Below, piece by piece: positions 7,597 through 37,577 of a DNA stretch of 38,820 bases. Within the stretch, counting starts at the first letter, position 1; every line of letters starts with the position of its first letter. The position numbers and the translations under genes were made by a program. The notes under the pieces were generated by a model, which was given only the letters and a program-made list of their open reading frames with translations, searched no databases and had not been told where the DNA came from. This DNA is from a virus (taxonomy: Duplodnaviria > Heunggongvirae > Uroviricota > Caudoviricetes). Where the stretch lies: the IMG/VR virus record IMGVR_UViG_2908572912_000003; one strand, 5' to 3'.

Positions 7597-7618
7597 TGTG
7601 GTCGCTCCTTCATGAATT

Positions 7619-7666: not shown

Positions 7667-7712
7667 AATAATCACCGGATTTAGCCGGATGTTCTCGGAC
7701 AACGACAGACAC

Positions 7713-7744: not shown

Positions 7745-7780
7745 TTTCTGTACTTCACTGGACGTATCCGGATCATGATT

Positions 7781-7808
7781 TGGTGGGCTGGCGGGAGTTG
7801 AACCCGCG
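7781..7808 (-). other. Attachment-site core: 3'-terminal 28 nt of a tmRNA (ssrA)-like gene, not a complete RNA gene
   Basis: Minus strand reads CGCGGGTTCAACTCCCGCCAGCCCACCA, nearly identical to the recalled E. coli ssrA 3' end (GCGGGTTCAACTCCCGCCAGCTCCACCA); the sequence 5' of it is AT-rich and not RNA-like. Confidence 0.55.
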
Positions 7809-7937
7809 TTCTATTAATGGTAAATAACTGTAATTTATAGCTTTTATTTGAAGTAGATCACATGCGTATCCTTTGTGGATACTTGAGGTATATGTTATAT
7901 ATAAAACATATATTTACATGAAGTAAATGGATGTTTT

Positions 7938-8561
7938 ATGACAATACAGGAAATAATTCAGCAACGTAATATTCGTAGCTTGTTTCATTTTACACATAGC
8001 GATAATCTAACTTCCATTTTAGATAATGGCCTTATGTCTCGTTCAGAACTTGATAATGAAAATAATGAATATAATTATAATGATGAAGAAAGGATTGATG
8101 GTCATCCAGATGCGATTTGTTTGTCCGTAAGTTACCCTAATGCAAAAATGTTTTATAAATATAGATGTTTAAAGCCTGGGGACTGGGTTATATTAGAAAT
8201 CAATCCATCTGTTCTTTGGGCTAAGGATTGCGCTTTTTATCCTACCAACGCAGCTTCGAATAACGTTCGTTTTATAAATCTTGATTTGATGAAAGGAGCT
8301 GAGGCATTTAGTGCTTTGTTTTCAGAGAATGTTTTTGGGATTCAGAGAGATGTAAACCTTCCAAGTGAGTATACGACGGATGTTCAAGCTGAAATACTGG
8401 TATTTGAAAAAATTCCTCCCTCATATATTATAAGCACTTTTCACCCTAACAAAGAATCTGCTGAACATTTCAAGAGATTATATCCACAGACAATACAGAG
8501 ATCTTATGATAATCTTAATGCTAGAACATTTTATTCTCAGAGGCATTATTATTTAGGATAA
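7938..8561 (+). CDS. DarT-like DNA ADP-ribosyltransferase toxin (DUF4433-like)
   Basis: 207 aa, AT-rich; N-terminal LFHFTHSDNLTSILDNGLMS resembles the recalled DarT NAD-binding motif; candidate catalytic Glu in AEILVFE near residue 150-155; a partner ORF follows 4 bp downstream. Confidence 0.5.
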   Translation: MTIQEIIQQRNIRSLFHFTHSDNLTSILDNGLMSRSELDNENNEYNYNDEERIDGHPDAICLSVSYPNAKMFYKYRCLKPGDWVILEINPSVLWAKDCAFYPTNAASNNVRFINLDLMKGAEAFSALFSENVFGIQRDVNLPSEYTTDVQAEILVFEKIPPSYIISTFHPNKESAEHFKRLYPQTIQRSYDNLNARTFYSQRHYYLG

Positions 8562-8564
8562 GTT

Positions 8565-9254
8565 ATGGCCGTTAGACCTGTTTTCGTCCCTACAAACGCA
8601 GGGAACTTACTATCGATCACGAAGGATGTGGATTTTCCTTGGGCTCCTGGTATGTCTAAAACGCAAAAGCAAAAATCGATCAGGGCGTTACATACAGCAG
8701 CGAATGAGCAGGGATTGAACTCTTTGTTGGAAATTTCTAGTAAATCCGAAGATGCGCTGGGGGTAGCACTTAGTGCATTTAATCTAAGAATAAAGACGAA
8801 AAGACTTGGGAAAGAGTTTACAGTTGAATCTGCATTTCAAGCAAGTAAAGTATTTGAAATGGGAGGACCATATGTCGATATCTTAGATAAAAGCTCGATA
8901 GAAGCAAAAAAAGATATGAGATTAAAGGAATCTGGGGGATTAGTTAACTTCAAATTTTATAATACAATATGGCCCATTGTCCCCAGGACTGCTTTTTATG
9001 ATTGGTTATATTTGAGTGCGCTCAATCAAAACAAAAATCTAGCACTCCATCTATTAAATTTTGATGGATTTACTGATATTGAATTTAATCCAGCGAAATC
9101 TATTAATTGCCAAGCCAGAGCAGCTGCACTTTTTGTCTCTTTAGTAAGACGAAATATGTTAGATGATGTTTTATCTTCAAAGGATGGTTTTTTATCAAAA
9201 TTAGCATCTCATTATGGTGTTGAAAATTATTCTATTCAACATACATTGATATGA
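8565..9254 (+). CDS. Partner of the DarT-like gene; possible NADAR (YbiA-like) domain antitoxin
   Basis: 229 aa with AGGA ribosome-binding site; LSAFNLRIKTKRLGKEFTVESAFQASKVF resembles the YbiA/NADAR segment FSNFAAWPIKVDGKTWPTSEHYFQAQKF; no macrodomain motifs (NAAN/GGGV) found. Confidence 0.4.
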   Translation: MAVRPVFVPTNAGNLLSITKDVDFPWAPGMSKTQKQKSIRALHTAANEQGLNSLLEISSKSEDALGVALSAFNLRIKTKRLGKEFTVESAFQASKVFEMGGPYVDILDKSSIEAKKDMRLKESGGLVNFKFYNTIWPIVPRTAFYDWLYLSALNQNKNLALHLLNFDGFTDIEFNPAKSINCQARAAALFVSLVRRNMLDDVLSSKDGFLSKLASHYGVENYSIQHTLI

Positions 9255-9256
9255 AT

Positions 9257-9280
9257 AATGGCCTGTAAAGGCCATTTTTA
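9257..9280. terminator. Bidirectional terminator between the convergent DarT-partner and integrase genes
   Basis: AATGGCC tgtaaa GGCCATT hairpin flanked by T-runs, filling the 32-bp gap between the two stop codons. Confidence 0.5.
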
Positions 9281-9286
9281 TCTAAA

Positions 9287-10456
9287 TTAATATCTATTTT
9301 TTCTATTTAAAGATGTATTTCCATCATATTCTTTGAGGTATGAGCCATAATGTCTAAATAACATCTCTGGTCCTTTATGACCCATTTGAACCGCAAGCCA
9401 AAACAGGTTTGCTCCCCGGCTGATATGGCTGGTGGCGAATGTATGTCTGGTTTGATATGGGTTTCTGTAACGAATACCTGCTTTCCGCAATGTTGGCACC
9501 CATGCTTTTTTTCTAATTGCATCAGCACTTGCCCAAGGCTTATTGGTCTTTGGATCTTCAAAGACTGTAGCATCCTTCATGAATGTAAATGGCTTCTGAT
9601 TTATCAGCGCCAACATTGCATCTTCTGTCAGTTCAACTTTACGAGTACCGGCTTTTGTCTTTGTTCCTTTGATAACACCGACAACACTTGCGCTCTGGAC
9701 ATGGGCAGTTTTTCCAACAAAGTCGATATCACGCCATCGAAGGGCACATAATTCAGAACTACGCAGGCCTGTATGTATAGCGAACCGGAACAGATTCTCC
9801 CATTGTTTGTTTCCGGCTGCTGCTAGTAATGCATCAACTTCTGCTGGTGATAGCGGATCAACCACGTAGCTGCTTTCTGCTTCTGACTTATCACTTTGGT
9901 AGCGCGAAGCAGTTACCAACGATACGGGGTTAATTTGAAGTACCCCATCGGTTACGGCTTCATCAAGTGCTGACCGCAGGAAAGATAACTGGTTGCGAAT
10001 TGTTTTTAAGGTCGTTTTCTGGCTTTGAATCCACGCTTTCAGGATTGCTGGTGTTAATTCACTTGCAGGGCAAATGTGGAGTGAGGCTAACGCACTACGG
10101 CATTTTTTATAACCACCAATCGTAGATGGTGAAAGTTTTCTCGTTTCGCAGATTTCAAGGTATTCGTCCAGGTACATTTTTACCGTTTTGCCTGCAGCAG
10201 CATTACCAAAAATTTTCAAACGAGCAGAACGGGGAAAATATTCCGCATAAATGAATGTTCCCCTTTCGATCTTATTATGAATTTCGCCGAGTGTGCGCTC
10301 GGCGTATTTAATGTTCTTTGGTGTTACTTCCAGATTGGAAAGAGGCTCACGACATCTAACTCCTTTGTAGGTGAAAGTTATATTGATCGTTTCGCCCTGG
10401 CGGTGTTTCCTGATTGTTACGCCGCGCGGTAGTTTGAGCAGTTTTGTCTGGCCCAT
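9287..10456 (-). CDS. int: Prophage tyrosine integrase
   Basis: 389 aa; catalytic region motifs (HTGLRSSELCALRW, HTFATSHI, GHKGPEMLFRHYGSY). Confidence 0.9.
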   Translation of the reverse strand: MGQTKLLKLPRGVTIRKHRQGETINITFTYKGVRCREPLSNLEVTPKNIKYAERTLGEIHNKIERGTFIYAEYFPRSARLKIFGNAAAGKTVKMYLDEYLEICETRKLSPSTIGGYKKCRSALASLHICPASELTPAILKAWIQSQKTTLKTIRNQLSFLRSALDEAVTDGVLQINPVSLVTASRYQSDKSEAESSYVVDPLSPAEVDALLAAAGNKQWENLFRFAIHTGLRSSELCALRWRDIDFVGKTAHVQSASVVGVIKGTKTKAGTRKVELTEDAMLALINQKPFTFMKDATVFEDPKTNKPWASADAIRKKAWVPTLRKAGIRYRNPYQTRHTFATSHISRGANLFWLAVQMGHKGPEMLFRHYGSYLKEYDGNTSLNRKNRY

Positions 10457-11911: not shown

Positions 11912-12736
11912 TCAGGCGGTGAAAGTACCAATAAAGGTTTCTACTTTGCTGTCCTTGAATTTCTCAACAAGCAGATCACGAAATTCGTTAGCCATTTCTT
12001 CCTGCACCGCCTCCAGCTGAATAATGCGCAGAACCAGTACAGGACGATCGCCAGTGATAATACTGAGGCGTAATTTAAACGGACGTTCTTTCAGACCTTC
12101 AAACGGAACGCATTTAAATTCAAATGCCACTGGCATAATGTCTTTGGTCTTCGCTTCGACAGACTCCATCAGGGAGCGTTTGCCGCTGAAGTCATTATCT
12201 TCAAAATCAGCGGTCTGGTTTGCTTCAATCGTGATTTTACGGACAGCCGCAGCCGCTTTTGTTGCCTGAATAGCGTCACCATTAGCATCAAAGCCCACAA
12301 GATAGTCGGCCCAGTCTTCAATCCATTCTGCCAGTGACTTCTGGGAGTTACGCTCGCCGTTAACAGACAACAGAGCAGAGAACGGTGCTGTCTTTTTCAG
12401 TTTGAGTGTGGCGGTGTTATCTGCGTGACCTGGTTCATCAATAGTACCCAGGTTAAGCACACTGACGGCACGCATATTATCAGCATCGATAAAGCAGCGG
12501 GTGCCTTCATCTGCAAGATCTTTAGAATAACGGGTAAAGTCATCGATGCTGGCAGTGGAAAGCGCACCACGGAAACGGAAGCGATTTAAATTAAATTTTT
12601 CCAGATCATGAATGCGGAAATTCTCAGGCAATGCCACAGCATCGGCACCAATCTTACTGATAATTTCATTAACACCCTGAGCAGAAATAAGGGCATGGAT
12701 TTGATTAATTGAGGTTGCGTCTAAGTTCTGAGACAT
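11912..12736 (-). CDS. Phage early protein, YfdQ-like (DUF2303)
   Basis: 274-aa ORF, ATG with GAGGA upstream; sequence recalled as similar to CPS-53 yfdQ-type prophage proteins. Confidence 0.5.
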
Positions 12737-14127: not shown

Positions 14128-14403
14128 GTGGCTTCTGTTTCTATCAGCTGTCCCTCCTGTTCAGCTACTGACGGGGTGGTGCGTAACGGCAAAAGCACCG
14201 CCGGACATCAGCGCTATCTCTGCTCTCACTGCCGTAAAACATGGCAACTGCAGTTCACTTACACCGCTTCTCAACCCGGTACGCACCAGAAAATCATTGA
14301 TATGGCCATGAATGGCGTTGGATGCCGGGCAACTGCCCGCATTATGGGCGTTGGCCTCAACACGATTTTACGTCACTTAAAAAACTCAGGCCGCAGTCGG
14401 TAA
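14128..14403 (+). CDS. insA: IS1 InsA
   Basis: [43 protein letters not shown]... matches recalled IS1 InsA. Confidence 0.85.
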
Positions 14404-14825
14404 CCTCGCGCATACAGCCGGGCAGTGACGTCATCGTCTGCGCGGAAATGGACGAACAGTGGGGATACGTCGGGGCTAAATCGCGCCAGCGCTGGCTGTT
14501 TTACGCGTATGACAGGCTCCGGAAGACGGTTGTTGCGCACGTATTCGGTGAACGCACTATGGCGACGCTGGGGCGTCTTATGAGCCTGCTGTCACCCTTT
14601 GACGTGGTGATATGGATGACGGATGGCTGGCCGCTGTATGAATCCCGCCTGAAGGGAAAGCTGCACGTAATCAGTAAGCGATATACGCAGCGAATTGAGC
14701 GGCATAACCTGAATCTGAGGCAGCACCTGGCACGGCTGGGACGGAAGTCGCTGTCGTTCTCAAAATCGGTGGAGCTGCATGACAAAGTCATCGGGCATTA
14801 TCTGAACATAAAACACTATCAATAA
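14322..14825 (+). CDS. insB: IS1 InsB reading frame (expressed as the InsAB' transposase by -1 frameshift)
   Basis: ...[36 protein letters not shown]... matches recalled IS1 InsB. Confidence 0.8.
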
Positions 14826-14840
14826 GTTGGAGTCATTACC

Positions 14841-22740: not shown

Positions 22741-24582
22741 ATGGCTGAATTTGAGCTTAAGGCGTTGATCACCGGTGTCGACAGGCTTTCTCCCGCGCTG
22801 TCGAAAATGCAAAAGAAAATCCGGGGATTTAAACGCCAGGCGGAAGAAGCGTCACAGGGTGGGCTGGCGCTTGGTGGCGGACTGGCAGCGGGTCTGACGC
22901 TTTCTCTGAAATCTTATGCCGATCAGGAAAACGCCGCCACCGGGCTGAAAGTCGCCATGATGGATGCGAACGGCGAGGTTGGAAAGAGCTTTCAGGACAT
23001 CAATAAACTGGCTATTGGCCTGGGTAACCAGCTACCCGGTACAACAGCTGATTTTCAGAACATGATGCAGATGCTGGTGCGTCAGGGGATCCCGGCAGAA
23101 AACATTCTTGGCGGTGTGGGTAAAGCGACAGCTTTTCTTGCGGTACAACTGAAAAAAACACCGGAAGCGGCTGCTGAGTTTGCCGCAAAGATGCAGGATG
23201 CTACCGGAACGGCGTCAGAAGACATGATGGGGCTGTTCGACACTATCCAGAAGGCGTTTTATCTGGGCGTTGACGATACCAACATGTTGTCCTTCTTCAC
23301 TAAAACCAGCTCTGTTCTGAAGATGGTGAACAAGGACGGTCTTCAGGCTGCACAGAGCCTTGCCCCCATCAGCGTCATGATGGATCAGATGGGGATGAAC
23401 GGGGAGTCGGCAGGTAATGCCCTGCGAAAAGTTATCCAGTCCGGATTAAGCGTTAAGAAAATCAGGGACGTCAATAAAGTTATGGCCCGTCAGAAACTCG
23501 GGGTACAGCTCGATTTTACTGACGGCAAAGGAAGTTTTGGCGGTCTTGATAACATGTTTAAGCAACTGGCAAAGCTGCGAAAACTTACCGACGTTAAGCG
23601 AACAGGTGTACTTAAGGCAATATTTGGTGATGATGCCGAAACCCTTCAGGTGGTCAATGCGCTGATCGATAAAGGAAAGGATGGTTACGATCAGATCCAG
23701 CAAAAGATGAATAAACAGGCCAGCCTGAATAAACGTGTTCAGGCACAGCTTGGTACGCTGTCCAACCTGTGGGAGGCAATGACGGGGACCGCAACTAACG
23801 GCCTTGCGGCTATTGGCGGCGCATTTTCTGGTGACGCCAAAAATATCACGCAATGGCTGGGGGAGTTGGGGGAAAAATTCACGAAGTTTGCGGATGAAAA
23901 TCCCCGGGTTATTCGCGGCGTCGTCGGGCTTGCTGCCGGTCTTGCGATTCTGAAACTGGGATTGATGGGCGTGGGCAGTGCCATCAGCATTGTCAGCAGG
24001 ATCATGTCGATGACGCCGATTGGCATGATTGCGACGGCGATAGCCCTGGCTGCGGGATTAATTATCACTAACTGGGATGTTGTCGGACCTTATTTCAAGA
24101 AGCTCTGGGAAACCATTGGTCCTTATTTTGAGGCTGGCTGGGAACTCCTTAAGAAAGTTTTTGCCTGGTCGCCGATGGGGATGGTGATCAATAACTGGGG
24201 GCCGGTTGTTAAGTGGTTTCAGGATATGTGGGACAAGCTGAAGCCAATTATTGAGTGGTTTACCGACAGTTCCGGTGACACGGTCGATGCCATTAACTCT
24301 GCGCAGTGGGGCGCGGGTGCTTATGATGCTTATGGGACGGGAATACCGGCACGGGGATACACTCCTTATCCGGCGGTGGATCCGGCTCAGGCAAACAACG
24401 CCTCCGATGCCACAGGCCCGAATCCCTTCATGATTAATAAAGCTTCTGCGCCAAAAGTTGATGGTGAGATCAAGGTATCTTTTGTGAATTCGCCTCCGGG
24501 TATGCGGGTTATGGAAACGCGATCCAGCGGTATCGACGTGAATCACGACGTTGGCTACACCCGATTTGGTATGGGGGGCTGA
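22741..24582 (+). CDS. Tail tape measure protein
   Basis: 613 aa; helical N-terminal part, hydrophobic Gly/Ala-rich central segment (GVVGLAAGLAILKLGLMGVGSAISIVS...). Confidence 0.85.
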   Translation: MAEFELKALITGVDRLSPALSKMQKKIRGFKRQAEEASQGGLALGGGLAAGLTLSLKSYADQENAATGLKVAMMDANGEVGKSFQDINKLAIGLGNQLPGTTADFQNMMQMLVRQGIPAENILGGVGKATAFLAVQLKKTPEAAAEFAAKMQDATGTASEDMMGLFDTIQKAFYLGVDDTNMLSFFTKTSSVLKMVNKDGLQAAQSLAPISVMMDQMGMNGESAGNALRKVIQSGLSVKKIRDVNKVMARQKLGVQLDFTDGKGSFGGLDNMFKQLAKLRKLTDVKRTGVLKAIFGDDAETLQVVNALIDKGKDGYDQIQQKMNKQASLNKRVQAQLGTLSNLWEAMTGTATNGLAAIGGAFSGDAKNITQWLGELGEKFTKFADENPRVIRGVVGLAAGLAILKLGLMGVGSAISIVSRIMSMTPIGMIATAIALAAGLIITNWDVVGPYFKKLWETIGPYFEAGWELLKKVFAWSPMGMVINNWGPVVKWFQDMWDKLKPIIEWFTDSSGDTVDAINSAQWGAGAYDAYGTGIPARGYTPYPAVDPAQANNASDATGPNPFMINKASAPKVDGEIKVSFVNSPPGMRVMETRSSGIDVNHDVGYTRFGMGG

Positions 24583-24586
24583 TACC

Positions 24587-25925
24587 CATAAGCGCTAACT
24601 TAAGGGTTGAACCATCTGAAGAATGCGACGCCTCGGTGCCTCGTTAAGACGATGCCTCGCGTTCTTCAATTGCGTTTTGTAGGCTGTCAGGGATACTGTC
24701 CCACGAATGGCCACCTGTAAGCTCCAGATGACCATTTTTGTTATTCTCCACAACGAGTTAGTTCTTCTTTTCGGATCCGGCACTTCTGGGGGGGAAATCC
24801 AGCGATGGCTGGATTATGTCGTCAATTAAAAATGCGGCGAGTAGATTAGCAAATATCCACGCTTTCGCGAGTTCAGGTTCCTTTGCACGCAAAGCATCCA
24901 GGTGCAGCAAACTTTTGAGCCGCTTAAAAGCCAGTTCAATTTGCCATCGCAGACGGTAACAATCAGCCACTTGCTCTGCTGAATATTCATCTTCCGGTAA
25001 TGATGTTAGCAATAGCACATGGCCCGCTGCTTCCAGCGTTTCCGCCTGAACTACTCGTCCTTTTCGACGATTCTCGCTGAGCAGTCGGGTTTTACTGATT
25101 AATGCTTTTTCGGGAGGAAGTGATACGGCAATGAGACGTGCCGGAAAGGGAGCTCCGGCTTTTTTATTACCTGAATTGCCTATCATTACAGTGGTTTCAC
25201 CGTTCTTACCGCAATCCAGCCCGCGCAGAAAACCCATCATGTCAAAGCGCATTCCTTCTGCAGTTAACCAGCGCAATCCTCGCCAGTGAACCCGGACGAT
25301 ATAATCAGCTTCTCCAAAAGCAAGTGAGCGGATACATTCGGGACGCGAACCGAATCCCCGGTCAGCAATGCGTATCTCGTCTGCCGTTTGCGCAAATCGG
25401 TCCAGCCGTTCAGCGTCTCTGCTGTCGGTTAGCTCAAAATCAGTGAACTGACAGGTATGAGGATCATATCCCATATGTAGTCGCCATTCAGCGCTGCCGC
25501 CCCCGGGCGCACTGATTGCTGTTCCATCGACAAGACGCAATCTCTTTCCGCTTGTACAACCCGTAACTGCGGCGCGTACAGCAAGTGTTTGTGCGGCAAG
25601 TATGCCAAACCAGTCGGCGGCATTCCGCAGCCGCTTCAGGAGAGCCACGTCAGATAATGTTGCAACGTCATGGAGCTGAGCCCATGCAGTGACTTCACGT
25701 AATGACATCCCCCCGGGGCCGTAAGCCAGCCCCAGACGTAGCAGAGTTGCAGCATCACGAATTTCGCGGCGGCGGGTTAGAGCCCCGGCATTACGTGCCG
25801 AAGTATCCAGTTCTTCGGGCTTACCAATATGGGCCAGAATTGCTGACCAGTTATCGTGAGAGTAATTCATCGGCACGTTAAATCATATCAGGCGTAATAC
25901 CACAACCCTTAAGTTAGCGCTTATG
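24587..25925 (-). mobile_element. IS186 (IS4 family) insertion
   Basis: Terminal inverted repeats CATAAGCGCTAACTTAAGGGTTG (24587-) and CAACCCTTAAGTTAGCGCTTATG (-25925); direct repeats GGCTGATACC(C) on both flanks; 1339 bp. Confidence 0.85.
24758..25876 (-). CDS. insL: IS186 transposase (InsL-like, IS4 family)
   Basis: 372 aa containing MNYSHDNWSAILAHIGKPEELDTSARNAG..., matching recalled IS186 transposase. Confidence 0.85.
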   Translation of the reverse strand: MPMNYSHDNWSAILAHIGKPEELDTSARNAGALTRRREIRDAATLLRLGLAYGPGGMSLREVTAWAQLHDVATLSDVALLKRLRNAADWFGILAAQTLAVRAAVTGCTSGKRLRLVDGTAISAPGGGSAEWRLHMGYDPHTCQFTDFELTDSRDAERLDRFAQTADEIRIADRGFGSRPECIRSLAFGEADYIVRVHWRGLRWLTAEGMRFDMMGFLRGLDCGKNGETTVMIGNSGNKKAGAPFPARLIAVSLPPEKALISKTRLLSENRRKGRVVQAETLEAAGHVLLLTSLPEDEYSAEQVADCYRLRWQIELAFKRLKSLLHLDALRAKEPELAKAWIFANLLAAFLIDDIIQPSLDFPPRSAGSEKKN

Positions 25926-26012
25926 GGCTGATACCCCGCTTAAACACGGGTTTTGTCGTTTAGCAGGTTCTTGGTAGGATTAGTCCGATACTTTAATGAT
26001 GGGAATAGGGAT

Positions 26013-26690
26013 ATGAAAGTCTTAACAATTTATTCAGTTGTCGGCATGGCTCTTTTACTCGGGGGATGTACCTCTCCGAAGTACAATTATTTACCAAAAA
26101 CAGAAAATTATAGTGAACCTCCTGTAGGAAGCATTAATACAGCTTATGTCGGTGATTCAATGATTAAGCAGGGGGTGTCACAGAGGTTTGAAGGTCTGAA
26201 GGTTAATGCTCCTGCGAGAATTTCCTGGGCGTATACGATCACTCCGGGGATGCTGAAAAAGGTTGGTGAGGATAACAAGGCTGATTATTACTTTCTCACA
26301 AACGGTGCTGATTCAGCCAATGTGGAAAAGGCAGCCCTTGCCGATATGTGGCAGGGCATCATGGTAGAAAAGAAAAAGAATGCCTTATGTGTAATAACAG
26401 TTTTCGGTGTTACCAACTGTGAAACTAACATGCCTATCGAAAAGGTTACTCTGAATATCAGTGGTGATTCATCTTTCCAGCAAGCTCTGCTTTACAACGG
26501 AAGGGTCGGAAACAAAATCAACATTGGATATCGTGAATTTTCATCGAATACAGCACGCCCGGCCTTCAACAACGATGTTGAGTATGATCTCGCGGAGTCT
26601 AAAACAATTGGCTATAAAGGGGCTAAATTCGAAGTACTTGATGCGAGTAACCAAAGCATAAGGTATCGGGTAATAAGTAACTTTAGATAA
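26013..26690 (+). CDS. Lipoprotein (phage accessory gene)
   Basis: 225 aa; signal peptide with lipobox (MKVLTIYSVVGMALLLGGC); AGGGA ribosome-binding site; its own terminator follows. Confidence 0.65.
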   Translation: MKVLTIYSVVGMALLLGGCTSPKYNYLPKTENYSEPPVGSINTAYVGDSMIKQGVSQRFEGLKVNAPARISWAYTITPGMLKKVGEDNKADYYFLTNGADSANVEKAALADMWQGIMVEKKKNALCVITVFGVTNCETNMPIEKVTLNISGDSSFQQALLYNGRVGNKINIGYREFSSNTARPAFNNDVEYDLAESKTIGYKGAKFEVLDASNQSIRYRVISNFR

Positions 26691-26704
26691 GCGATAATTT
26701 AATG

Positions 26705-26728
26705 AAACCCGCTTCGGCGGGTTTTTTT
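26705..26728 (+). terminator. Rho-independent terminator after the lipoprotein gene
   Basis: AAACCCGC ttcg GCGGGTTT hairpin followed by a T-run. Confidence 0.6.
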
Positions 26729-26743
26729 ATATCCGGAGTTTAT

Positions 26744-28072
26744 ATGACGTGGAAAGACAGACTTCAGGACGCGTCATTTCGCGGCGTGCCGTTTAAGGTT
26801 GAAGAAGAAAGTGCGGGAACCGGTCGCCGTGTGGAAACACACGAATACCCGAACCGCGACAAACCCTATACCGAAGACCTGGGGAAAATCACTTTCCGCC
26901 CGTCCATCACGGCTTATGTGGTGGGAGATGACTGCTTTGACCAGCGTGATCGCCTGATTGAAGCGCTGAATAAACCCGGTCCCGGCACGCTTGTCCACCC
27001 GACATACGGTGAGCTGAAAGTCTGTGTTGACGGGGAAGTTCGGGTCAGCACATCGAAGAGTGAAGGGCGTATTGTCCGCTTTGACCTGAAGTTTGTCGAA
27101 GCGGGAGAACTCTCTTACCCCACATCAGGCGCGGCGACGGCGCAGACGCTGATGTCATCCTGTTCTGCGCTGGATGACTGCATCAGTGACAGCTTCAGTG
27201 GTTTCAGTATCGATGGCGTGGCGGATTTCGTACAGAACGACGTTATTGGTAATGCCAGCACAATGCTGGGGTATGTTTCTGATGCGATGAAAGTGGTGGA
27301 TTCTGCCGTATCGGATGCCGCCAGGCTGTTGCAGGGGGATATCTCGGTACTTCTGCCGCCGCCATCGTCAGGAAAAAATTTCGTTGAGCAGGTGCAGAAA
27401 ATGTGGCGTACCGGGAAGCGCCTTTATGGTAACGCCAGCGACCTGGTCACCATGATCAAAACGCTTTCTGGTGTCAGCCTCGGCAGCGATCTGCAACCGC
27501 GCGGCGTCTGGAAAACGGACAGTAAAACCACCGTCACGGCGACGCAGCAGCGTAACGTGGTTGCCAGCACCCTTCGTACGACCGCAATCAGCGAAGCGGC
27601 GTATGCCATCACCCGATTGCCTGCGCCAACAATTTCCGCGGTGATGCAGAATGCCGCAGTGGGGCAGTCAACAACACCCGCGCAGAGCACCGGCTGGCCT
27701 TCCGTCATGCATCCGGCACTGAACAATGCACCGGCGGTGAAAAACACGGTTGACCTGCCGACGTGGGAAGAACTGACTGACATTCGCGACACACTGAATA
27801 CGGCAATTGATAAGGAGTTGTCCCGTACAACCAGTGATGCGCTGTTTCTGGCGCTGCGCCGGGTGAAAGCAGATCTGAATGCGGATATCAACACGCGCCT
27901 TGAACAGTCTGCACGGATCATTCAGCGCACGCCGGATGAGGTCTTACCCGCGCTGGTGCTGGCGGCGACCTGGTTTGATAACGCGGCGCGTGACGCGGAC
28001 ATTATCCGGCGTAATGCCATTACGCATCCCGGCTTTGTGCCGGTGATCCCTCTGAAGGTGCCAGTGCTATGA
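26744..28072 (+). CDS. DNA circulation protein (Mu gp43-like), N-terminal domain family
   Basis: 442 aa; ATG with GGAG upstream; follows the tape measure gene as in Mu-like tail modules. Confidence 0.65.
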   Translation: MTWKDRLQDASFRGVPFKVEEESAGTGRRVETHEYPNRDKPYTEDLGKITFRPSITAYVVGDDCFDQRDRLIEALNKPGPGTLVHPTYGELKVCVDGEVRVSTSKSEGRIVRFDLKFVEAGELSYPTSGAATAQTLMSSCSALDDCISDSFSGFSIDGVADFVQNDVIGNASTMLGYVSDAMKVVDSAVSDAARLLQGDISVLLPPPSSGKNFVEQVQKMWRTGKRLYGNASDLVTMIKTLSGVSLGSDLQPRGVWKTDSKTTVTATQQRNVVASTLRTTAISEAAYAITRLPAPTISAVMQNAAVGQSTTPAQSTGWPSVMHPALNNAPAVKNTVDLPTWEELTDIRDTLNTAIDKELSRTTSDALFLALRRVKADLNADINTRLEQSARIIQRTPDEVLPALVLAATWFDNAARDADIIRRNAITHPGFVPVIPLKVPVL

Positions 28073-31744: not shown

Positions 31745-32671
31745 ATGCATCGTATAGACACGAAAACCGCGCAAAAGGATAAGTTCGGCGCGGGTAAGAA
31801 CGGTTTTACCCGTGGTAACCCCCAGACAGGCACGCCTGCCACCGATCTGGATGATGACTACTTTGACATGTTGCAGGAGGAACTTTGCAGTGTTGTGGAG
31901 GCATCCGGTGCCAGTCTGGAGAAGGGGCGGCACGATCAGTTGCTTACCGCACTTCGCGCGCTGCTGTTAAGCCGCAAGAATCCGTTTGGCGATATCAAAT
32001 CGGACGGCACGGTGAAAACGGCTCTCGAAAACCTTGGTTTGGGAGATACAAGCGGATACGTGGGACGCTGGGTGAATACCCGGGTTTTCACGTCATCAGG
32101 TACGTACACCCCGACGCCAGGAACAAAACGGATCAGGGTCACAATAACGGGCGGCGGTGGCGGAGGGGGCGGCTGTAAGGCTATATCCAATAATGAAACG
32201 TTTTTCGGTGCTGGCGGCGGGGCAGGTGGGACAGTAATCACCACGCTGATCCTGACGAAGGATAGTTATCCTGTCACTATCGGCGCAGGTGGGGCCGGCG
32301 GCGTTAGTGCGACGAACGGCCTCAAGGGCGGTGATAGCTCGTTCGGATCGGTAATAGCCCCTGGTGGTGAAGGTGGTGGAAAATCAGGAGTCACAAACAC
32401 GAACGGTGGTAACGGCGGTGTGCCAAGTACTGGCGGTATCAACATCATTGGTGGAAATGGAGGCGACGGTCAGTCCGGAAATATCGGCGTCAGCGGTGAA
32501 GGCGGAACATCGTACTGGGGGGGCGGTGGACGCGCAGGCGCTGGCGGTGGTGTTAGTGGTAAGGCATATGGTTCAGGTGGCGGTGGCGCATACGATGCCG
32601 GTTATAGCGGAACCAGTATGACAGGCGGGAAAGGTGCTGCTGGGATTTGTATTATCGAGGAGTTTGCATAA
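31745..32671 (+). CDS. Tail fibre protein, glycine-rich C-terminal region
   Basis: 308 aa; conserved N-terminus ([22 protein letters not shown]) then GGxGG-rich repeats. Confidence 0.65.
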
Positions 32672-33087
32672 TGAATGCGTCATATGCAGTTATTGAAAAT
32701 GGGATGGTTGTGAATGTCATTGTCTGGGATGGCGAGGCTGAATTCACAGTGCCGGATAATCAGCAGCTCATTGATATTTCTGATATCAGTGAGCATCCCG
32801 GAATCGGCTGGGGGTATTCAGACGGGGTATTTACTGCGCCGCTCCCTCCGGAACGTTCTCATGATGAACTGGTAGCTGACGCTGAACAGAAAAAACAGTC
32901 GCTGATAGACGCAGCAATGGCCAATATCAGCGTGATTCAGTTAAAGCTGCAGGCCGGGCGCAAACTGACGCAAGAAGAAACTACCCGACTTAACGTTGTG
33001 CTGGATTATATCGAGGCTGTGACGGCAACAGATACCAGCATTGCACCGGATTTTGAGTGGCCGGATGAACCGTGCTTCGCTGAGTAA
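32671..33087 (+). CDS. Tail fibre assembly protein (Tfa-like)
   Basis: 138 aa; ATG overlaps the fibre stop; N-terminal AVIENGMVVNVIVWDG motif. Confidence 0.6.
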   Translation: MNASYAVIENGMVVNVIVWDGEAEFTVPDNQQLIDISDISEHPGIGWGYSDGVFTAPLPPERSHDELVADAEQKKQSLIDAAMANISVIQLKLQAGRKLTQEETTRLNVVLDYIEAVTATDTSIAPDFEWPDEPCFAE

Positions 33088-33347: not shown

Positions 33348-34415
33348 TTAATGAAATTTATCTCGGATGAATTGTTGCGATGGTTTTTCAATGAATATAT
33401 ATGACATATAGCTAATTGCCATTAATGTAAGCATGAATAAAATGAATACCTTGGGGCTGTAAAAAAGATCGCGTCCATAGCCAATCTTGTCAGCTAAATA
33501 AACAACAATGATTTGCAAAGGAAAATGTAAAAGATAAGATGAATAACTGATATCGCCCAACCATTCAATTTTTTTCCCAAAATCGTTTCGTATTGCGCTA
33601 ATTGATACAAGGAAAAATATTATGGAGGTAAATCCGAATAAGATAATTGAGAATATATCTGCTACTTGCAGGGTAAATATAACTCCCCATGAGATCAATA
33701 GAAAAACACAAGCAAAAATAAAAAATAACTTTGCGCTAATATTTTTTATGGCCGCAATCGTAATTTTATAAGTCAGACCACCAATAAAGAAAGAGAATGC
33801 GCCGATCATTATGGGATTGTTAATTTTGAAAAAGTAGTACGATAATGCAACTATTAAAATTGATATGAATGTTGTTTTTGATGTGAACTTGCATAATATA
33901 AAAAATATCATGTACATAAGTACTTCAATCGACACGGACCATGTCGGGGCGTTGAAGGACCAACCTCGCTCAAATCCCCATGATTGAATCATCAATAAAT
34001 TCAGAATGGCATGGTAAATGTCATTCATAGGATAAACAAAAAAATAATTATGACTTTTAAAGAAAATAATTTGTAATATTGCCACGACAGCAAATGTAAA
34101 TATATAAAGTGGATATAATCTACTGACACGGTTAACTATAAAAGTTTTTGCTGAGGTTTTATTGCTGTGTATATTGTCAGCGTATAGATAAAAAAATATG
34201 AATCCAGAAATCATAAAAAATAATTCGACAGCATATAAACCGTAATGATAAAAGACGGAAAAAAATTCATAAAAAGGTTGGCGGTTTATGATTATGTCAG
34301 ATGCAGCATTCTTTTTCATAAAAAAATGTTGCCAATGCCATAACACAACGGAAAGTGCGGCAAATCCTCTCAGAACATCCAGGGTATATATTCTCTTCCC
34401 AAAAACATTCGTCAC
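33348..34415 (-). CDS. Acyltransferase family 3 membrane protein (probable O-antigen/LPS acetyltransferase)
   Basis: 355 aa, polytopic membrane protein with N-terminal DVLRGFAALSVVLWH motif; strongly AT-rich; GTG start with GAGG upstream; located after the tail fibre genes. Confidence 0.8.
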   Translation of the reverse strand: MTNVFGKRIYTLDVLRGFAALSVVLWHWQHFFMKKNAASDIIINRQPFYEFFSVFYHYGLYAVELFFMISGFIFFYLYADNIHSNKTSAKTFIVNRVSRLYPLYIFTFAVVAILQIIFFKSHNYFFVYPMNDIYHAILNLLMIQSWGFERGWSFNAPTWSVSIEVLMYMIFFILCKFTSKTTFISILIVALSYYFFKINNPIMIGAFSFFIGGLTYKITIAAIKNISAKLFFIFACVFLLISWGVIFTLQVADIFSIILFGFTSIIFFLVSISAIRNDFGKKIEWLGDISYSSYLLHFPLQIIVVYLADKIGYGRDLFYSPKVFILFMLTLMAISYMSYIFIEKPSQQFIRDKFH

Positions 34416-34886
34416 AACGAACCTCTTTTAATAAAGTCAAGTGATAATGAAAGATAAATATTGTAAACGAAAAAACACTGGACTGGAACATATATCTCTG
34501 CCTGTAATTTAACCAGGATAATTTTACTAACGCAGTCATAATTCGTTCATGTATACCAGATGAAAGTACATGTTCTATGAAATAGGGTTTTGCCTGGAGT
34601 TTGAAGGTTTTTAACGATTATACCTGTTTAATCGACTCCCCATGTTTTTTGACATTATCCACCGCACACGATACTGGATGCCAGGTAAACTGATTTGCTG
34701 GCATAAAGTCACTGAGAATTTTTTACCAACAATATCTTGCCACATCTTTTCCCGCACAGTTTCGGCAATAGAATCAGCGGGCAGCGGACATCAATATTCA
34801 CCAGACATTGATCTGCCGCACTATCTGACCGGTGTCCTGCTGAGAATACTAATTTCTTTTTTTTGCAAGTGCTGTCCAATCATGAT

Positions 34887-34916
34887 TGGGGGGGGCCGGC
34901 GGAGTTGAAACCGCAG
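34887..34916 (-). other. Degenerate tmRNA 3'-end-like sequence (possible older att remnant)
   Basis: Minus strand CTGCGGTTTCAACTCCGCCGGCCCCCCCA shares the GGCGG(G)AGTTGAA(C)CCGC core with the att core at 7781-7808. Confidence 0.3.
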
Positions 34917-34966
34917 ACACGTTGTATGCAATAACGTGCTGCGGTTTAATCTTATCAATTGAATAC

Positions 34967-35836
<870 letters not shown>

Positions 35837-36143
35837 CTAAGCCTTTGAATTTACAGAGTACAAAAAAGATACTTTTCCTCATAATGTGAGCTAATTTTAT
35901 GTTTCGTTTGATGATTGGACCGGTCTCGAAAACCGTAGGCACGTAGTATGCGTTAATTTATGAACAAACTACTTGTCTGCTGTTTTTCTGTCATTAGTCG
36001 TATATAGAATGATTCTCTATGCCTAACAAAGCATCACCAGTGCTAGATTACGTTGTAGTCACTGTTTAAATATCCAGATAAAACATTTCCTTCTGGGTTG
36101 AATGAGTGATAAAGTTTCACCCATTAGACCCCTTGGAGGAATT

Positions 36144-37577
36144 ATGTCTGAATTTGAAGTGTTGGCACAGCATCTGCTGAAGGAAGCCGAGGCGGAAGAA
36201 AAGCTGCGACAGGAAAATGATAAAAAGCTTATCGAGAAAGTGCTGGAAATCTATGATCAGAAGTATGTGGCTGAATTACTGAGAAAAGTCGGAAAAAATG
36301 AGTGGAGCCGTGAAACCATTAACCGCTGGATTAATGGCAAGTGTTTACCAAAATCGTTGACTTCAGTAGAAGAGTCTCTTCTGCGTAAGATGCTACCAGA
36401 ACCACCTGCAAACCATCCGGAATATGCTTTCCGCTTCATTGACTTATTTGCTGGAATTGGAGGGATACGGAAAGGTTTTGAGGCCATTGGAGGCCAGTGT
36501 GTTTTTACCAGTGAATGGAATAAAGATGCTGTGCGTACATACAAGGCCAACTGGTTTAACGATGAACAGGTGCATAAATTCAATCTCGATATTCGGGAAG
36601 TCACGCTGAGTGATAAAACCGATGTATTGGAAACGGATGCTTATGCATATATTGATGAGCATGTGCCGGATCATGATGTGCTTCTTGCGGGGTTCCCGTG
36701 CCAGCCATTTAGCCTTGCTGGTGTTAGTAAGAAAAACTCACTTGGTCGTGCGCATGGTTTTGAATGTGAAGCACAAGGAACACTTTTTTTTGACGTGGCA
36801 CGTATTATACGAGCAAAAAAACCGGCAATTTTTGTGCTGGAAAATGTCAAAAATCTGAAGAGCCATGATAAGGGTAAAACTTTCAAAGTCATTATGGAGA
36901 CCCTTGACGAGCTGGGCTACGAAGTTGCCGATGCTGCAGAAATGGGAAAAAACGATCCAAAGATTATCGATGGGAAGCATTTTTTGCCTCAGCATCGTGA
37001 ACGCATTGTTCTGGTCGGATTTAGACGAGATCTGAATATTCACAAGGGGTTTACCTTGCGTGATATCAGTCGTTTTTATCCGGAACACCGCCCATCATTT
37101 GGTGAATTGCTGGAGCCTGTAGTCGACAGTAAATATATACTTACGCCAAAACTATGGGAGTACCTTTATAACTACGCCAAAAAGCATGCAGCCAAGGGGA
37201 ATGGTTTTGGCTTTGGGTTGGTCAATCCTGAGAATAAGGAAAGCATTGCACGCACACTTTCTGCCAGATATCACAAAGACGGATCAGAAATTCTTATTGA
37301 TCGTGGTTGGGATATGGCAACGGGAGAGGCTGACTTTATGAATGAGAGTAACCAGGCTCGTCGACCACGCAGGCTGACTCCCCGAGAGTGCGCACGCCTT
37401 ATGGGGTTTGAAAAACCTGGAGGGAAACCATTCCGTATTCCGGTTTCAGATACTCAGTCATATCGGCAGTTCGGTAACTCCGTTGTGGTGCCAGTATTTG
37501 AAGCCGTTGCCAGACTTCTGGAACCCTATATCCTCAAAGCTGTTTCTGCTGATGCTGGTAAGACTGGGCAGCCTTGA
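36144..37577 (+). CDS. ecoRIIM: DNA cytosine-5 methyltransferase, M.EcoRII/Dcm type (CCWGG)
   Basis: Motif [14 protein letters not shown] catalytic motif ([10 protein letters not shown]), ENV motif (FVLENVKNL); closely resembles recalled Dcm/M.EcoRII; ATG at 36144 with GGAGGA upstream (the track ORF starts 42 nt earlier). Confidence 0.9.

What the first reader, a model, noticed from the sequence alone, without database searches (positions are those of the whole stretch)
26013..26728. Lipoprotein accessory gene between the tape measure and DNA-circulation genes
A 225-aa protein with a clear lipobox signal peptide and its own strong terminator is embedded in the tail module, where no structural gene is expected in Mu-type tails. 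Lipoprotein genes in this position in other phages act in superinfection exclusion by blocking outer-membrane receptors.
Basis: partly seen in the sequence, partly recalled or inferred. Interest (0 to 1): 0.5.

Follow-up and report, generated by a model that had tools for sequence, protein, structure and literature searches.

The report
Lipoprotein cargo gene beside tape-measure gene
A decaying E. coli prophage carries, between two tail genes, a self-contained add-on gene for an outer-membrane lipoprotein of a large, uncharacterised family that also travels on other prophages, integrons and conjugative elements; it is not a tail part, and its function (most likely envelope protection, perhaps against incoming phages) is untested.

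Summary
ORF 26013-26690 encodes a 225-aa protein with a lipobox (LLGG|C19), followed by a strong hairpin terminator, between the tape-measure gene and the Mu N-type DNA-circulation gene.

It is accessory, not structural. SfI, SfII, SfV and most related E. coli prophages have this junction empty, and at least four other unrelated genes occupy it in other strains. GC is 0.41 against 0.53-0.60 in the flanks, and dN/dS is 0.06-0.12.

One correction: the terminator belongs to the phage backbone and is present at the empty site of SfII. What the gene carries with it is a conserved extended -10 promoter (TTGTCG-16 nt-TGgTAGGAT), 32 nt upstream of the ATG.

The protein belongs to phrog_1353, with about 3,000 clusters across diderm phyla. 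It has no Pfam, PADLOC or PDB match, and its confident all-beta model has no fold relative. Relatives recur next to tape-measure genes in unrelated prophages. They also occur in the P2 gpA-gpQ defence hotspot, on an ICE beside Shedu, and as a Vibrio integron cassette.

It is unrelated to Cor, and it differs from Llp and Rtp45 in size and in carrier type. Superinfection exclusion is plausible but unproven, and masking of the phage's own receptor is unlikely.

The parts
25935..25954 (+). Weak upstream hairpin (CCCG-8 nt-CGGG) plus TTTT, at the left edge of the cassette
   Evidence: Read from the sequence. The homologous position in relatives L012 and L029 holds a full ACCCGC/GCGGGT terminator-like hairpin directly before the promoter.
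25953..25980 (+). Predicted sigma-70 promoter that travels with the gene: -35 TTGTCG (25953-25958), 16-nt spacer, extended -10 TGgTAGGAT (25972-25980), 32 nt before the ATG
   Evidence: TGnTAGGAT, with n variable, is conserved 30-33 nt (16 nt in two regions where my start call may be off) before the called ATG in 16 unique enterobacterial upstream regions in different phage contexts. Acinetobacter copies have GTGACA-17 nt-TGtTAAAGT. 28 of 67 dereplicated upstream regions have TGnTAnnnT 15-40 nt before the ATG, against 3.0 +/- 1.6 in shuffles (maximum 10 in 1000) and 3 on the reverse strand. The generic scan missed it because it matches only 8 of 12 consensus positions. No transcript data.
26013..26069 (+). 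Signal peptide and lipobox (residues 1-19, LLGG|C19); residue +2 is Thr
   Evidence: Residue +2 in the family is A, V, T or S in 100 of 118 representatives, with a few other residues and never Asp. By the E. coli +2 rule (established knowledge) this predicts outer-membrane sorting.
26013..26690 (+). Lipoprotein gene, 225 aa, family phrog_1353
   Evidence: phrog_1353 matches full length, E = 1.5e-98, annotated 'unknown function'. No Pfam family. AF2 model has pLDDT 88.6 and is all-beta. Invariant C126 and C136 flank a beta-hairpin, which I read as a disulphide. Conserved motif INIGYREFSxNxARPAFNNDVEYD. dN/dS 0.06-0.12. GC about 0.41.
26704..26731 (+). Intrinsic terminator hairpin plus T-run, shared with the phage backbone
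   Evidence: Equivalent hairpins sit at the same place in SfII (empty site) and in SKA5 (different cargo).
24587..25925 (-). IS4-family IS421/IS186-type insertion sequence (context, not part of the cassette). 23-bp inverted ends CATAAGCGCTAACTTAAGGGTTG. Target duplications GGCTGATACC at 24577-24586 and 25926-25935.
   Evidence: Transposase ORF 24758-25876 (-) matches PF01609. Annotated IS421 in an identical E. coli locus. Ends and duplication were read. IS-free alleles exist. The insertion lies 17 bp upstream of the predicted -35 and leaves the promoter intact.
22741..24582 (+). Tail tape-measure gene (left flank of the cargo site)
   Evidence: PF10145, E = 1.2e-25. Annotation of relatives.
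26744..28072 (+). Mu N-type DNA-circulation / tail gene (right flank of the cargo site)
   Evidence: PF07157, E = 8e-34. Annotation of relatives.

Best explanation
This is a moron, meaning a horizontally acquired, self-contained accessory cassette. It sits in a cargo hotspot between the tape-measure gene and gene N of an SfV/SfII-like, Mu-tailed E. coli prophage.

Shown: it is dispensable for the virion; it is one of several alternative cargoes at this junction; it brings a conserved extended -10 promoter with it; and it encodes a lipoprotein under strong purifying selection from a very large uncharacterised family that circulates as a single gene on many kinds of mobile element.

Inferred: the protein is lipidated at Cys19 and sorted by Lol to the inner leaflet of the outer membrane. 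Its compact beta-sandwich domain starts only a few residues after the lipid anchor, so it would sit against the periplasmic face of the outer membrane. It is made constitutively in the lysogen from its own promoter.

Most likely, but not shown: it protects the carrier cell at the envelope, with exclusion of incoming phage at adsorption or genome delivery across the periplasm as the leading candidate. It would act on a broadly conserved envelope component or on a conserved step of tail penetration, not on the specific receptor of its own phage.
For: Accessory status:
- The site is empty in SfI, SfII and SfV.
- 863 E. coli genomes carry both flanks in one place. In an evenly spaced sample of 60 records the span is mostly 854 bp (empty). 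Alternatives are 1612 bp (this gene), about 1474 bp (a 170-aa signal-peptide protein), 1237/1380 bp (a membrane-anchored OB-fold protein on the opposite strand), 1287 bp (a bPH_1 protein) and 1203 bp (a 176-aa protein with an N-terminal transmembrane segment).
- The lipoprotein cassette is present in 53 of 5426 genomes.
- GC is 0.41 against 0.53-0.60 in the flanks.

Autonomy:
- The promoter is conserved with the gene in unrelated contexts.
- No partner gene is conserved. The tape-measure gene is the only recurrent neighbour.

Real, constrained protein:
- dN/dS 0.06-0.12.
- 41 invariant columns in the family alignment.
- 3047 clusters at 50% identity.

Envelope location:
- Lipobox and +2 residue.
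- Conserved Cys pair C126/C136.

Mobile-element cargo in defence-rich places:
- Upstream of the tape-measure gene beside mnt/arc/antirepressor genes in Klebsiella prophages.
- Downstream of the tape-measure gene beside HicAB in a Providencia prophage.
- After a toxin-antitoxin pair in Acinetobacter phage Ab1656-2.
- In the gpA-gpQ hotspot of Fels-2 and of a Klebsiella P2-like phage, next to a reverse transcriptase. That locus is a documented defence hotspot (PMC9122126).
- As ICE cargo next to Shedu.
- In a Geobacter island after an integrase, with reverse-transcriptase and PRTase genes.
- Next to a type I restriction-modification system and ArdA.
- As a single Vibrio parahaemolyticus integron cassette between attC repeats. 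Integron cassettes are reported to encode phage defence (abstracts listed).

Other points:
- All 33 phage-database carriers are prophage-derived or belong to groups I know to be temperate, judged from record names and taxonomy and not checked.
- Positional precedent: the HK97 gp15 moron next to the tape-measure gene is a superinfection-exclusion protein (PMC3594210).
- Four of the five cargoes found at this junction, this one included, carry a signal peptide or membrane anchor (read from the sequences).

Against: Proteins that bind phage parts usually evolve fast. This family is strongly conserved, at 45-50% identity between E. coli and Geobacter or Vibrio. That fits a conserved cellular ligand or an enzymatic role at least as well.

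Several more distant members lie between housekeeping genes: nrdAB-glnD, dnaG-rpoD, next to parC, ppc and gshA. PADLOC hits among 150 neighbouring proteins were few and scattered; the most frequent families matched only two proteins each.

Adjacency to tape-measure genes may only reflect permissive insertion sites.

The promoter is predicted, not measured. In this window the prophage is a remnant, so selection on phage-related functions cannot be assumed.
Confidence: 0.4

Rival explanations
1. General envelope-protection or fitness factor unrelated to phage. The lipoprotein would bind or modify a conserved periplasmic or outer-membrane component. Examples: shielding peptidoglycan or the outer membrane from lysozymes, type VI amidases, colicins, predatory bacteria or serum, as lambda Bor does for serum resistance. 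Mobile elements would carry it because it benefits any diderm host.
For: The family spans Proteobacteria, Planctomycetes, Omnitrophica, Verrucomicrobia, Gemmatimonadetes and Bacteroidetes, with high conservation and many invariant polar residues (K83, D111, Y161, K168, R174, E175, R182, N187, E190, Y191, D192) that suggest a fixed ligand or active site. Some members sit between housekeeping genes. Integron cassettes and ICE cargo carry many non-defence adaptive genes. No defence-database hit.
Confidence: 0.27
2. A Cor/Llp/Rtp45-type exclusion lipoprotein binds the periplasmic face of the outer-membrane receptor used by its own phage and thereby blocks adsorption.
For: It is a predicted outer-membrane, periplasm-facing lipoprotein with almost no tether between the lipid anchor and the folded domain. 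Llp and Rtp45 act from that position (PMC12685063). It is encoded in a tail operon, as cor is.
Against: It is three times larger than Cor (77 aa precursor), Llp or Rtp45 (about 6-8 kDa). BLASTP against Cor gives E = 35. It is not next to the receptor-binding or tail-fibre genes, which lie at 31745-33087 according to the ORF list and the annotation of a relative. The same protein family is carried by phages with unrelated tails and hosts (Mu-type myophage, lambda-J-type siphophages of Klebsiella and Providencia, Acinetobacter and Moraxella phages, P2-like phages) and by elements with no receptor-binding protein at all (integron, ICE, islands). So it cannot be matched to its carrier's receptor. 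No virulent-phage carriers were found.
Confidence: 0.12
3. A late-expressed factor serving the phage's own lytic cycle. It would prevent progeny from re-adsorbing to debris, or assist tail or tape-measure function, and would be transcribed only with the tail operon.
For: It lies in the same orientation inside the late tail operon. In many phages it is directly adjacent to the tape-measure gene. A backbone terminator follows it, which antiterminated late transcription would read through; a Q-family antiterminator is annotated in a close relative.
Against: It has its own conserved promoter, preceded in relatives by a terminator that would insulate it from upstream transcription. It is absent from SfI, SfII, SfV and most relatives. 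It occurs outside phages. In this window it persists intact in a prophage remnant that has lost its terminase-to-regulatory half.
Confidence: 0.06
4. A structural or assembly component of the Mu-type tail.
For: Position inside the tail module only.
Against: The junction is empty in SfI, SfII, SfV and most sampled E. coli relatives and holds unrelated genes in others. The product has a Sec/SPase II signal, so it would be exported away from the cytoplasmic site of tail assembly. It is found in non-phage elements. GC is atypical.
Confidence: 0.02

Closest known systems
HK97 gp15 moron (superinfection exclusion; Cumby et al. 2012, summarised in PMC3594210)
   Same: An AT-rich add-on gene in the tail operon directly next to the tape-measure gene, with its own expression signals. 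It is expressed from the prophage, encodes an envelope protein, and has bacterial homologues outside prophages.
   Different: gp15 is a small single-pass inner-membrane protein of the YebO family restricted to Enterobacteriaceae. This is a 225-aa outer-membrane-type lipoprotein of an unrelated, phylum-spanning family. gp15's exclusion activity was demonstrated; nothing has been tested here.
Cor (HK022, phi80, N15), a lipoprotein that inactivates FhuA
   Same: A moron-encoded lipoprotein in the tail region of a temperate coliphage.
   Different: Cor is 77 aa and lies downstream of the J-type tail-tip gene. There is no sequence similarity (E = 35). Cor is matched to its phage's receptor, and this family is not tied to any receptor-binding protein.
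T5 Llp and Rtp Rtp45, periplasmic outer-membrane lipoproteins that block FhuA or LptDE
   Same: Predicted location: the inner leaflet of the outer membrane, facing the periplasm, with a short tether (PMC12685063).
   Different: They are about 6-8 kDa, belong to virulent siphophages, and serve the lytic cycle. This protein is about 22 kDa, has a different fold class and size, and was found only in temperate or mobile-element contexts.
Lambda Bor (Iss family), a moron lipoprotein conferring serum resistance
   Same: A prophage-expressed outer-membrane lipoprotein encoded by a moron (PMC3594210).
   Different: No Pfam match to any family. Different size and predicted fold. Bor's role is host virulence, not phage exclusion.
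TP-J34 Ltp, a lipoprotein that targets the incoming tape-measure protein (PMC3952083 abstract; the tape-measure target is from my own knowledge of Bebeacua et al. 2013)
   Same: A prophage lipoprotein acting at genome entry. It is a possible functional analogue, given how often this gene sits next to tape-measure genes.
   Different: Ltp is from a Gram-positive phage, is encoded in the lysogeny module, and is built of helical repeats. This protein is all-beta and from diderm bacteria. The resemblance is conceptual only.
PHROG family phrog_1353
   Same: Full-length match, E = 1.5e-98. This is the family the protein belongs to.
   Different: The family has no annotated function, so membership does not explain the protein.

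Membership tests
Moron (Juhala/Hendrix definition, as restated in PMC3594210) | Extra gene inserted between two genes that are adjacent in related phages | tested here: met
   The tape-measure gene and gene N are adjacent in SfI, SfII and SfV and in most E. coli relatives (854-bp span against 1612 bp with the gene).
Moron (Juhala/Hendrix definition, as restated in PMC3594210) | Base composition different from the neighbouring genes | tested here: met
   GC 0.40-0.44 across 25950-26700 against 0.53-0.60 in the flanking tail genes.
Moron (Juhala/Hendrix definition, as restated in PMC3594210) | Own promoter | tested here: met
   TTGTCG-16 nt-TGgTAGGAT is conserved with the gene across different genomic contexts and is enriched against shuffles and against the reverse strand. 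This is a sequence prediction only.
Moron (Juhala/Hendrix definition, as restated in PMC3594210) | Own terminator | tested here: inconclusive
   A strong terminator follows the gene, but an equivalent hairpin is present at the empty site of SfII. It is therefore shared with, or inherited from, the backbone.
Moron (Juhala/Hendrix definition, as restated in PMC3594210) | Expressed from the repressed prophage | not testable with these tools
   No transcript or proteome data were available. Literature searches for the accession, the family and the Fels-2 homologue found nothing useful.
Bacterial lipoprotein (SPase II substrate), outer-membrane sorted | n-region, hydrophobic core and lipobox [LVI][ASTVI][GAS]C | tested here: met
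   MK...LLGG|C19. Cys is invariant in 42 sequences. The lipobox is present in 118 of 136 representatives, and most of the rest have near-canonical boxes.
Bacterial lipoprotein (SPase II substrate), outer-membrane sorted | No Asp at position +2 (Lol avoidance signal absent) | tested here: met
   +2 is Thr here. In the family it is A, V, T or S in 100 of 118 representatives and never D. This is a rule-based inference, valid for Enterobacteriaceae.
Cor superinfection-exclusion family | Sequence similarity to Cor; precursor of about 77 aa | tested here: not met
   BLASTP against HK022 Cor gives E = 35. The lengths are 225 aa against 77 aa.
Cor superinfection-exclusion family | Inactivates FhuA | not testable with these tools
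   Requires adsorption, ferrichrome or colicin M assays.
Llp / Rtp45-type exclusion lipoproteins | Small (about 6-8 kDa) lipoprotein of a virulent siphophage | tested here: not met
   The mature protein is about 206 aa. All 33 phage-database carriers are prophage-derived or belong to groups I know to be temperate. Sizes of Llp and Rtp45 are from PMC12685063. The gene here is about 5 kb from the tail-fibre genes. I did not compare the sequence directly with Llp or Rtp45.
Lambda Bor / Iss and TraT lipoprotein families | Match to the Pfam family model | tested here: not met
   No Pfam-A family at E <= 0.1. That Pfam holds models for these families is from my own knowledge.
Known or candidate anti-phage defence proteins (PADLOC-DB 2.0) | Match to any of the 5027 models | tested here: not met
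   No hit at E <= 1.
Mu-type tail structural or assembly gene | Conserved presence and position in phages sharing the tail module | tested here: not met
   Absent from SfI, SfII, SfV and most relatives, and replaced by unrelated genes in others.
phrog_1353 | Full-length profile match | tested here: met
   E = 1.5e-98, residues 1-225 on profile positions 1-227 of 230.
Integron gene cassette (applies to relatives, not to this window) | Single ORF bounded by attC recombination sites inside a cassette array | tested here: met
   In V. parahaemolyticus locus L185 the gene (7001-7681) lies between attC-type repeats of about 125 nt at 6785-6910 and 7691-7782, within an array of 17 such repeats.

The most novel reading that the evidence does not exclude
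phrog_1353 is a new, very widespread class of single-gene, envelope-level protection factor with a fold unlike any solved structure. It would be an outer-membrane-anchored periplasmic beta-sandwich lipoprotein that blocks phage genome delivery or adsorption through a conserved envelope component or a conserved tail-penetration step. Prophage morons (preferentially beside tape-measure genes), P2 hotspots, ICEs and integron cassettes would spread it across diderm bacteria.
Probability: 0.3. Interest if true: 0.7.

Novelty: new variant of a known kind. Interest (0 to 1): 0.45.

Why it matters
Morons that encode envelope proteins are a main route by which prophages change host phenotype and block rival phages, but only a few have known mechanisms (Cor, Llp, Rtp45, gp15, SieA, Bor).

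This gene belongs to a family of about 3,000 sequence clusters that has no Pfam model, no solved or predicted fold relative and no literature. Yet at least five kinds of mobile element carry it as a stand-alone, promoter-equipped unit.

If it is a defence or exclusion factor, it would add a common, easily transferable, single-gene mechanism acting at the outer membrane or periplasm. That would bear on phage-therapy host range in E. coli, Klebsiella, Acinetobacter and Vibrio.

The work also defines the tape-measure/gene-N junction of SfV-like prophages as a cargo hotspot with at least five alternative genes, a compact set for functional screening.

If the function proves unrelated to phage, the result is an ordinary uncharacterised moron.

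Tried and rejected
- Sequence families. Pfam, NCBIfam, PADLOC and a PDB sequence profile gave nothing usable. The NCBIfam pilin hit (17 bits against a cutoff of 138) and the PDB thioesterase hit (E = 0.34) are noise.
- Literature. WP_000866660 and phrog_1353 returned no papers. STM2726 appears in one microarray paper, which I did not open. The prophage-transcriptome paper, the LptDE paper and the two P2/P4 hotspot papers do not mention the family.
- Conserved operon partner. None was found among 76 species-level loci. Only the tape-measure gene (10 loci by clustering, plus L147 where Pfam identified a tape-measure gene) and integrases (6 loci) recur.
- Defence enrichment among neighbours. PADLOC hits among 150 flanking proteins were scattered, with no family matching more than two proteins, so they do not amount to a usable enrichment test.
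- Alternative cargoes at the same junction. None is a known defence gene.
- The generic promoter scan found no promoter upstream. Comparative alignment did.
- The UniRef name 'DKNYY family protein' on one homologue was not reproduced by the Pfam scan of the window protein.
- I first called the insertion sequence IS186. RefSeq names the identical copy IS421, of the same IS4 family.
Full report
**1. What is in the sequence**

The ORF at 26013-26690 (+) starts with ATG, ends with TAA and encodes 225 aa. Its N-terminus, MKVLTIYSVVGMALLLGG|C, is a textbook SPase II signal with Cys19 as the lipidated residue.

A 9-bp GC-rich hairpin with a T-run follows at 26704-26731. It folds at -14.9 kcal/mol, z = -2.6.

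The tape-measure gene (22741-24582, PF10145) lies upstream. The Mu N-type DNA-circulation gene (26744-28072, PF07157) lies downstream. GC falls to 0.40-0.44 over the gene, against 0.53-0.60 in the tail genes.

Comparison with alleles 95% and 88% identical in protein gives dN/dS of 0.115 and 0.057.

RefSeq annotates an identical copy as IS421, an IS186 relative. It inserted exactly at the tape-measure stop codon with a 10-bp duplication, GGCTGATACC. IS-free alleles are common.

**2. It is cargo, not a tail part**

The tail module is that of the SfV/SfI/SfII group. In those three phages the tape-measure gene is followed, after about 50 bp, by gene N.

I built a query from the last 400 nt of the tape-measure gene joined to the first 400 nt of gene N. 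It finds both flanks together in 863 E. coli genomes. In an evenly spaced sample of 60 records the span is mostly 854 bp, which is the empty site. The other spans are:

| Span (bp) | Occupant |
|---|---|
| 1612 | this gene |
| about 1474 | a 170-aa signal-peptide protein, as in phage SKA5 |
| 1237 / 1380 | a membrane-anchored tRNA_anti-like OB-fold protein, on the opposite strand |
| 1287 | a bPH_1 protein |
| 1203 | a 176-aa protein with an N-terminal transmembrane segment |

. The lipoprotein cassette itself is in 53 of 5426 complete E. coli genomes. The junction is therefore a cargo hotspot, and this gene is one of at least five alternatives.

**3. The terminator is the backbone's; the promoter is the gene's**

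SfII has an empty site. Aligning the right junction shows that SfII has a hairpin at the same position after the same TTAATGA. Its stem carries compensatory changes (TCCCAC/GTGGGA against ACCCGC/GCGGGT), and the T-run and gene-N ribosome-binding region are identical. SKA5, with a different cargo, shares the 3' arm. So 'its own terminator' is not correct.

The gene does bring an upstream element with it. In E. coli, Pseudocitrobacter, Citrobacter, Klebsiella/Enterobacter-type and other enterobacterial copies that sit in different phage contexts, the flanks are unrelated. Nevertheless TGnTAGGAT, with n variable, lies 30-33 nt before the called ATG (16 nt in two regions where my start call may be off), and a TTGnnn hexamer lies 16 nt further upstream. 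Acinetobacter copies have GTGACA-17 nt-TGtTAAAGT.

In the window this reads TTGTCG (25953-25958), a 16-nt spacer, and TGgTAGGAT (25972-25980).

Across 67 dereplicated upstream regions, 28 carry an extended -10 motif 15-40 nt before the ATG. Shuffles give 3.0 +/- 1.6 (maximum 10 in 1000), and the reverse strand gives 3. Related sequences inflate such counts, but six different hexamers are involved.

In several relatives a terminator-like hairpin directly precedes this promoter. In the window it is reduced to a 4-bp stem at 25935-25954.

The IS421 insertion is 17 bp upstream of the -35 and leaves the unit intact.

This is the classic moron layout, and it predicts expression in the lysogen. The prediction is not measured.

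**4. The protein**

It matches phrog_1353 ('unknown function') over its full length, E = 1.5e-98. It matches nothing in Pfam, NCBIfam above cutoff, PADLOC or PDB sequences.

The word-indexed search of the 90%-identity protein clusters found 1067 relatives. The profile search of the 50%-identity representatives found 3047, of which 1889 have E <= 1e-10. Nearly all are single-domain proteins of 215-240 aa.

Species-level hits cover alpha-, beta-, gamma- and delta-Proteobacteria, Planctomycetes, Omnitrophica, Verrucomicrobia, Gemmatimonadetes and Bacteroidetes. Every source calls it 'hypothetical' or 'lipoprotein'.

Conservation is high, at 45-53% identity between the E. coli copy and copies from Vibrio, Geobacter or Desulfuromusa. 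The alignment has 41 invariant columns. These include Cys19, a second Cys pair (C126, C136) and the block INIGYREFSxNxARPAFNNDVEYD.

A lipobox is present in 118 of 136 full-length representatives. Residue +2 is never Asp, which in enterobacteria predicts outer-membrane sorting.

The AlphaFold2 model is confident (pLDDT 88.6) and all-beta, with 17 strands and a long central hairpin. The fold begins within a few residues of the lipid anchor.

**5. Where relatives live**

Among the phage and virus loci, one neighbour recurs: the tape-measure gene.

- The gene lies directly after it in the SfV-like myophages and in a Providencia siphophage.
- It lies directly before it, or one small ORF before it, in Klebsiella/Enterobacter-type, Citrobacter, Erwinia, Rouxiella, Acinetobacter, Psychrobacter and other siphophage prophages.
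- At least 51 of 97 loci in the first set have it within two genes.
- So do 10 of the 76 species-level genome loci by clustering, plus L147, where Pfam identified a tape-measure gene on the opposite strand.

Many of these loci are related to each other, so the number of independent insertions is smaller. I did not count it.

The gene's companions at these sites are other accessory genes: mnt/arc/antirepressor sets, HicAB, and a DUF4258-HTH pair.

Outside tail operons the family occurs in these places:

- The gpA-gpQ region of Fels-2, RE2010 and Klebsiella P2-like phages, beside a reverse transcriptase. That locus is a documented defence hotspot (PMC9122126).
- An ICE variable region, next to Shedu.
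- A Geobacter island, directly after the integrase, with reverse-transcriptase and PRTase genes.
- A locus beside a type I restriction-modification system and ArdA.
- A locus next to TelA/PLD/AAA genes in Photobacterium.
- V. parahaemolyticus, where it is a single integron cassette bounded by attC repeats of about 125 nt, in an array of 17 repeats.

More distant members also lie between housekeeping genes: nrdAB-glnD, dnaG-rpoD, and near parC, ppc and gshA.

No partner gene is conserved. PADLOC hits among 150 flanking proteins were scattered, with no family matching more than two proteins, which does not give a usable enrichment test.

**6. Interpretation**

Shown: this is an autonomous, dispensable, horizontally mobile, single-gene unit. 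It encodes a conserved exported lipoprotein.

Inferred: the protein is anchored in the outer membrane, faces the periplasm, and is expressed in the lysogen.

Most likely function, which I put at about 0.4: protection of the carrier cell at the envelope, with exclusion of incoming phage as the leading version. The reasons are these:

- The gene sits in prophage cargo sites and defence hotspots.
- Four of the five cargoes at this junction, this one included, are envelope-targeted.
- All 33 phage-database carriers are prophage-derived or belong to groups I know to be temperate.
- The one characterised gene at the equivalent position, HK97 gp15, is an exclusion protein that blocks genome entry (PMC3594210).

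- Those proteins are 6-8 kDa and unrelated. Cor gives E = 35.
- They are encoded beside receptor-binding genes.
- This family keeps 45-80% identity while being carried by phages with unrelated tails and hosts, and by elements that have no receptor-binding protein at all.

The strong conservation, the many invariant polar residues and the housekeeping-type contexts keep a non-phage envelope role alive, such as a Bor-like fitness factor or protection against muralytic or membrane attack (about 0.27). A structural role is effectively excluded.

**7. Comparison, novelty and score**

In architecture this is an ordinary moron. The one caveat is that its terminator is shared with the backbone.

The protein is not a member of any characterised exclusion or defence family. 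It has no Pfam model, no literature and no fold relative, despite about 3,000 clusters and carriage on at least five kinds of mobile element. I therefore rate it a new variant of a known kind.

Interest is moderate (0.45). Tail-operon morons of unknown function are common. What lifts this one are the breadth and mobility of the family, its conserved portable promoter, its apparently new fold, its recurrent position next to tape-measure genes, and the ease of an experimental test.

**8. State of the host prophage**

The window's prophage is a remnant. Homology to an intact relative starts at 14840, inside the end of the large terminase gene, directly after an IS1 copy (14128-14825). To the left lie two integrases and unrelated genes.

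With the late promoter region gone on that side, any expression of the lipoprotein here must come from its own promoter. The ORF is 100% identical to copies in other strains.

Noticed in passing
window 24587-25925 (duplications at 24577-24586 and 25926-25935): An IS4-family IS421/IS186-type element inserted exactly at the tape-measure stop codon. It duplicates GGCTGATACC, so the stop codon is retained. It separates the tape-measure gene from all downstream tail genes and lies 17 bp upstream of the lipoprotein promoter. At least two of the listed E. coli genomes carrying the cassette also carry this insertion; most listed copies do not.
   Followed up: partly
window about 14128-14840: An IS1 copy (InsA-like ORF 14128-14403, InsB 14322-14825, PF03400) marks the left end of homology to an intact relative. 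That homology begins at 14840, inside the 3' end of the large terminase gene. The small terminase, lysis, Q antiterminator and early regions are absent on this side, so the prophage is a remnant.
   Followed up: partly
window 4137-10456: Two tyrosine integrases on the minus strand (6394-7596 and 9287-10456), a 743-aa ORF with no Pfam match (4137-6368) and a DUF2303 protein (11912-12736). This is a separate mosaic of integrative elements to the left of the prophage remnant. Relatives annotate DUF262 and YfdQ genes there.
   Followed up: no
window 33348-37577: To the right of the tail-fibre genes lie an Acyl_transf_3 protein (33348-34415, minus strand; possibly an O-antigen acetyltransferase of the serotype-converting type), a GIY-YIG protein (34967-35791, minus strand) and a C-5 cytosine methyltransferase with a DNA_meth_N domain (36102-37577). 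Close relative H14 instead has gtrA, gtrB and a gtrC-like gene plus intS at tRNA-Arg.
   Followed up: no
E. coli loci L004, L179, L180, L181, L182 (tape-measure/gene-N junction): The same junction holds at least four other cargoes: a 170-aa signal-peptide protein, a membrane-anchored tRNA_anti-like OB-fold protein on the opposite strand, a bPH_1 protein, and a 176-aa protein with an N-terminal transmembrane segment. None matches PADLOC. Three of these four are envelope-targeted.
   Followed up: partly
L185 6785-7782 (Vibrio parahaemolyticus): A 50%-identical homologue is a single gene cassette of a chromosomal integron, flanked by attC-type repeats of about 125 nt in an array of 17 repeats. 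The other cassettes encode acetyltransferases, an RDD protein and similar products.
   Followed up: yes
L012 7796-8164; L003 5683-5946: In siphophage prophages a small ORF sits between the lipoprotein gene and the tape-measure gene. In the Klebsiella type it is 122-143 aa with a zinc ribbon. In the Acinetobacter type it is 87 aa with no Pfam match. The two are not homologous to each other, and no such ORF is present in the window.
   Followed up: partly
L009 9547-16213 (Photobacterium): Next to a homologue lies a TelA - PLDc_2 - 1623-aa DUF3686/DUF7902/AAA gene set on the opposite strand. It looks like a defence-type module. I did not identify it.
   Followed up: no
protein collection, cluster of the Fels-2 homologue: The 90%-identity cluster that holds the Fels-2 STM2726 protein also contains branched-chain amino-acid transaminases and has one as its representative. 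This is apparently a clustering artefact, and names taken from that cluster should not be trusted.
   Followed up: no
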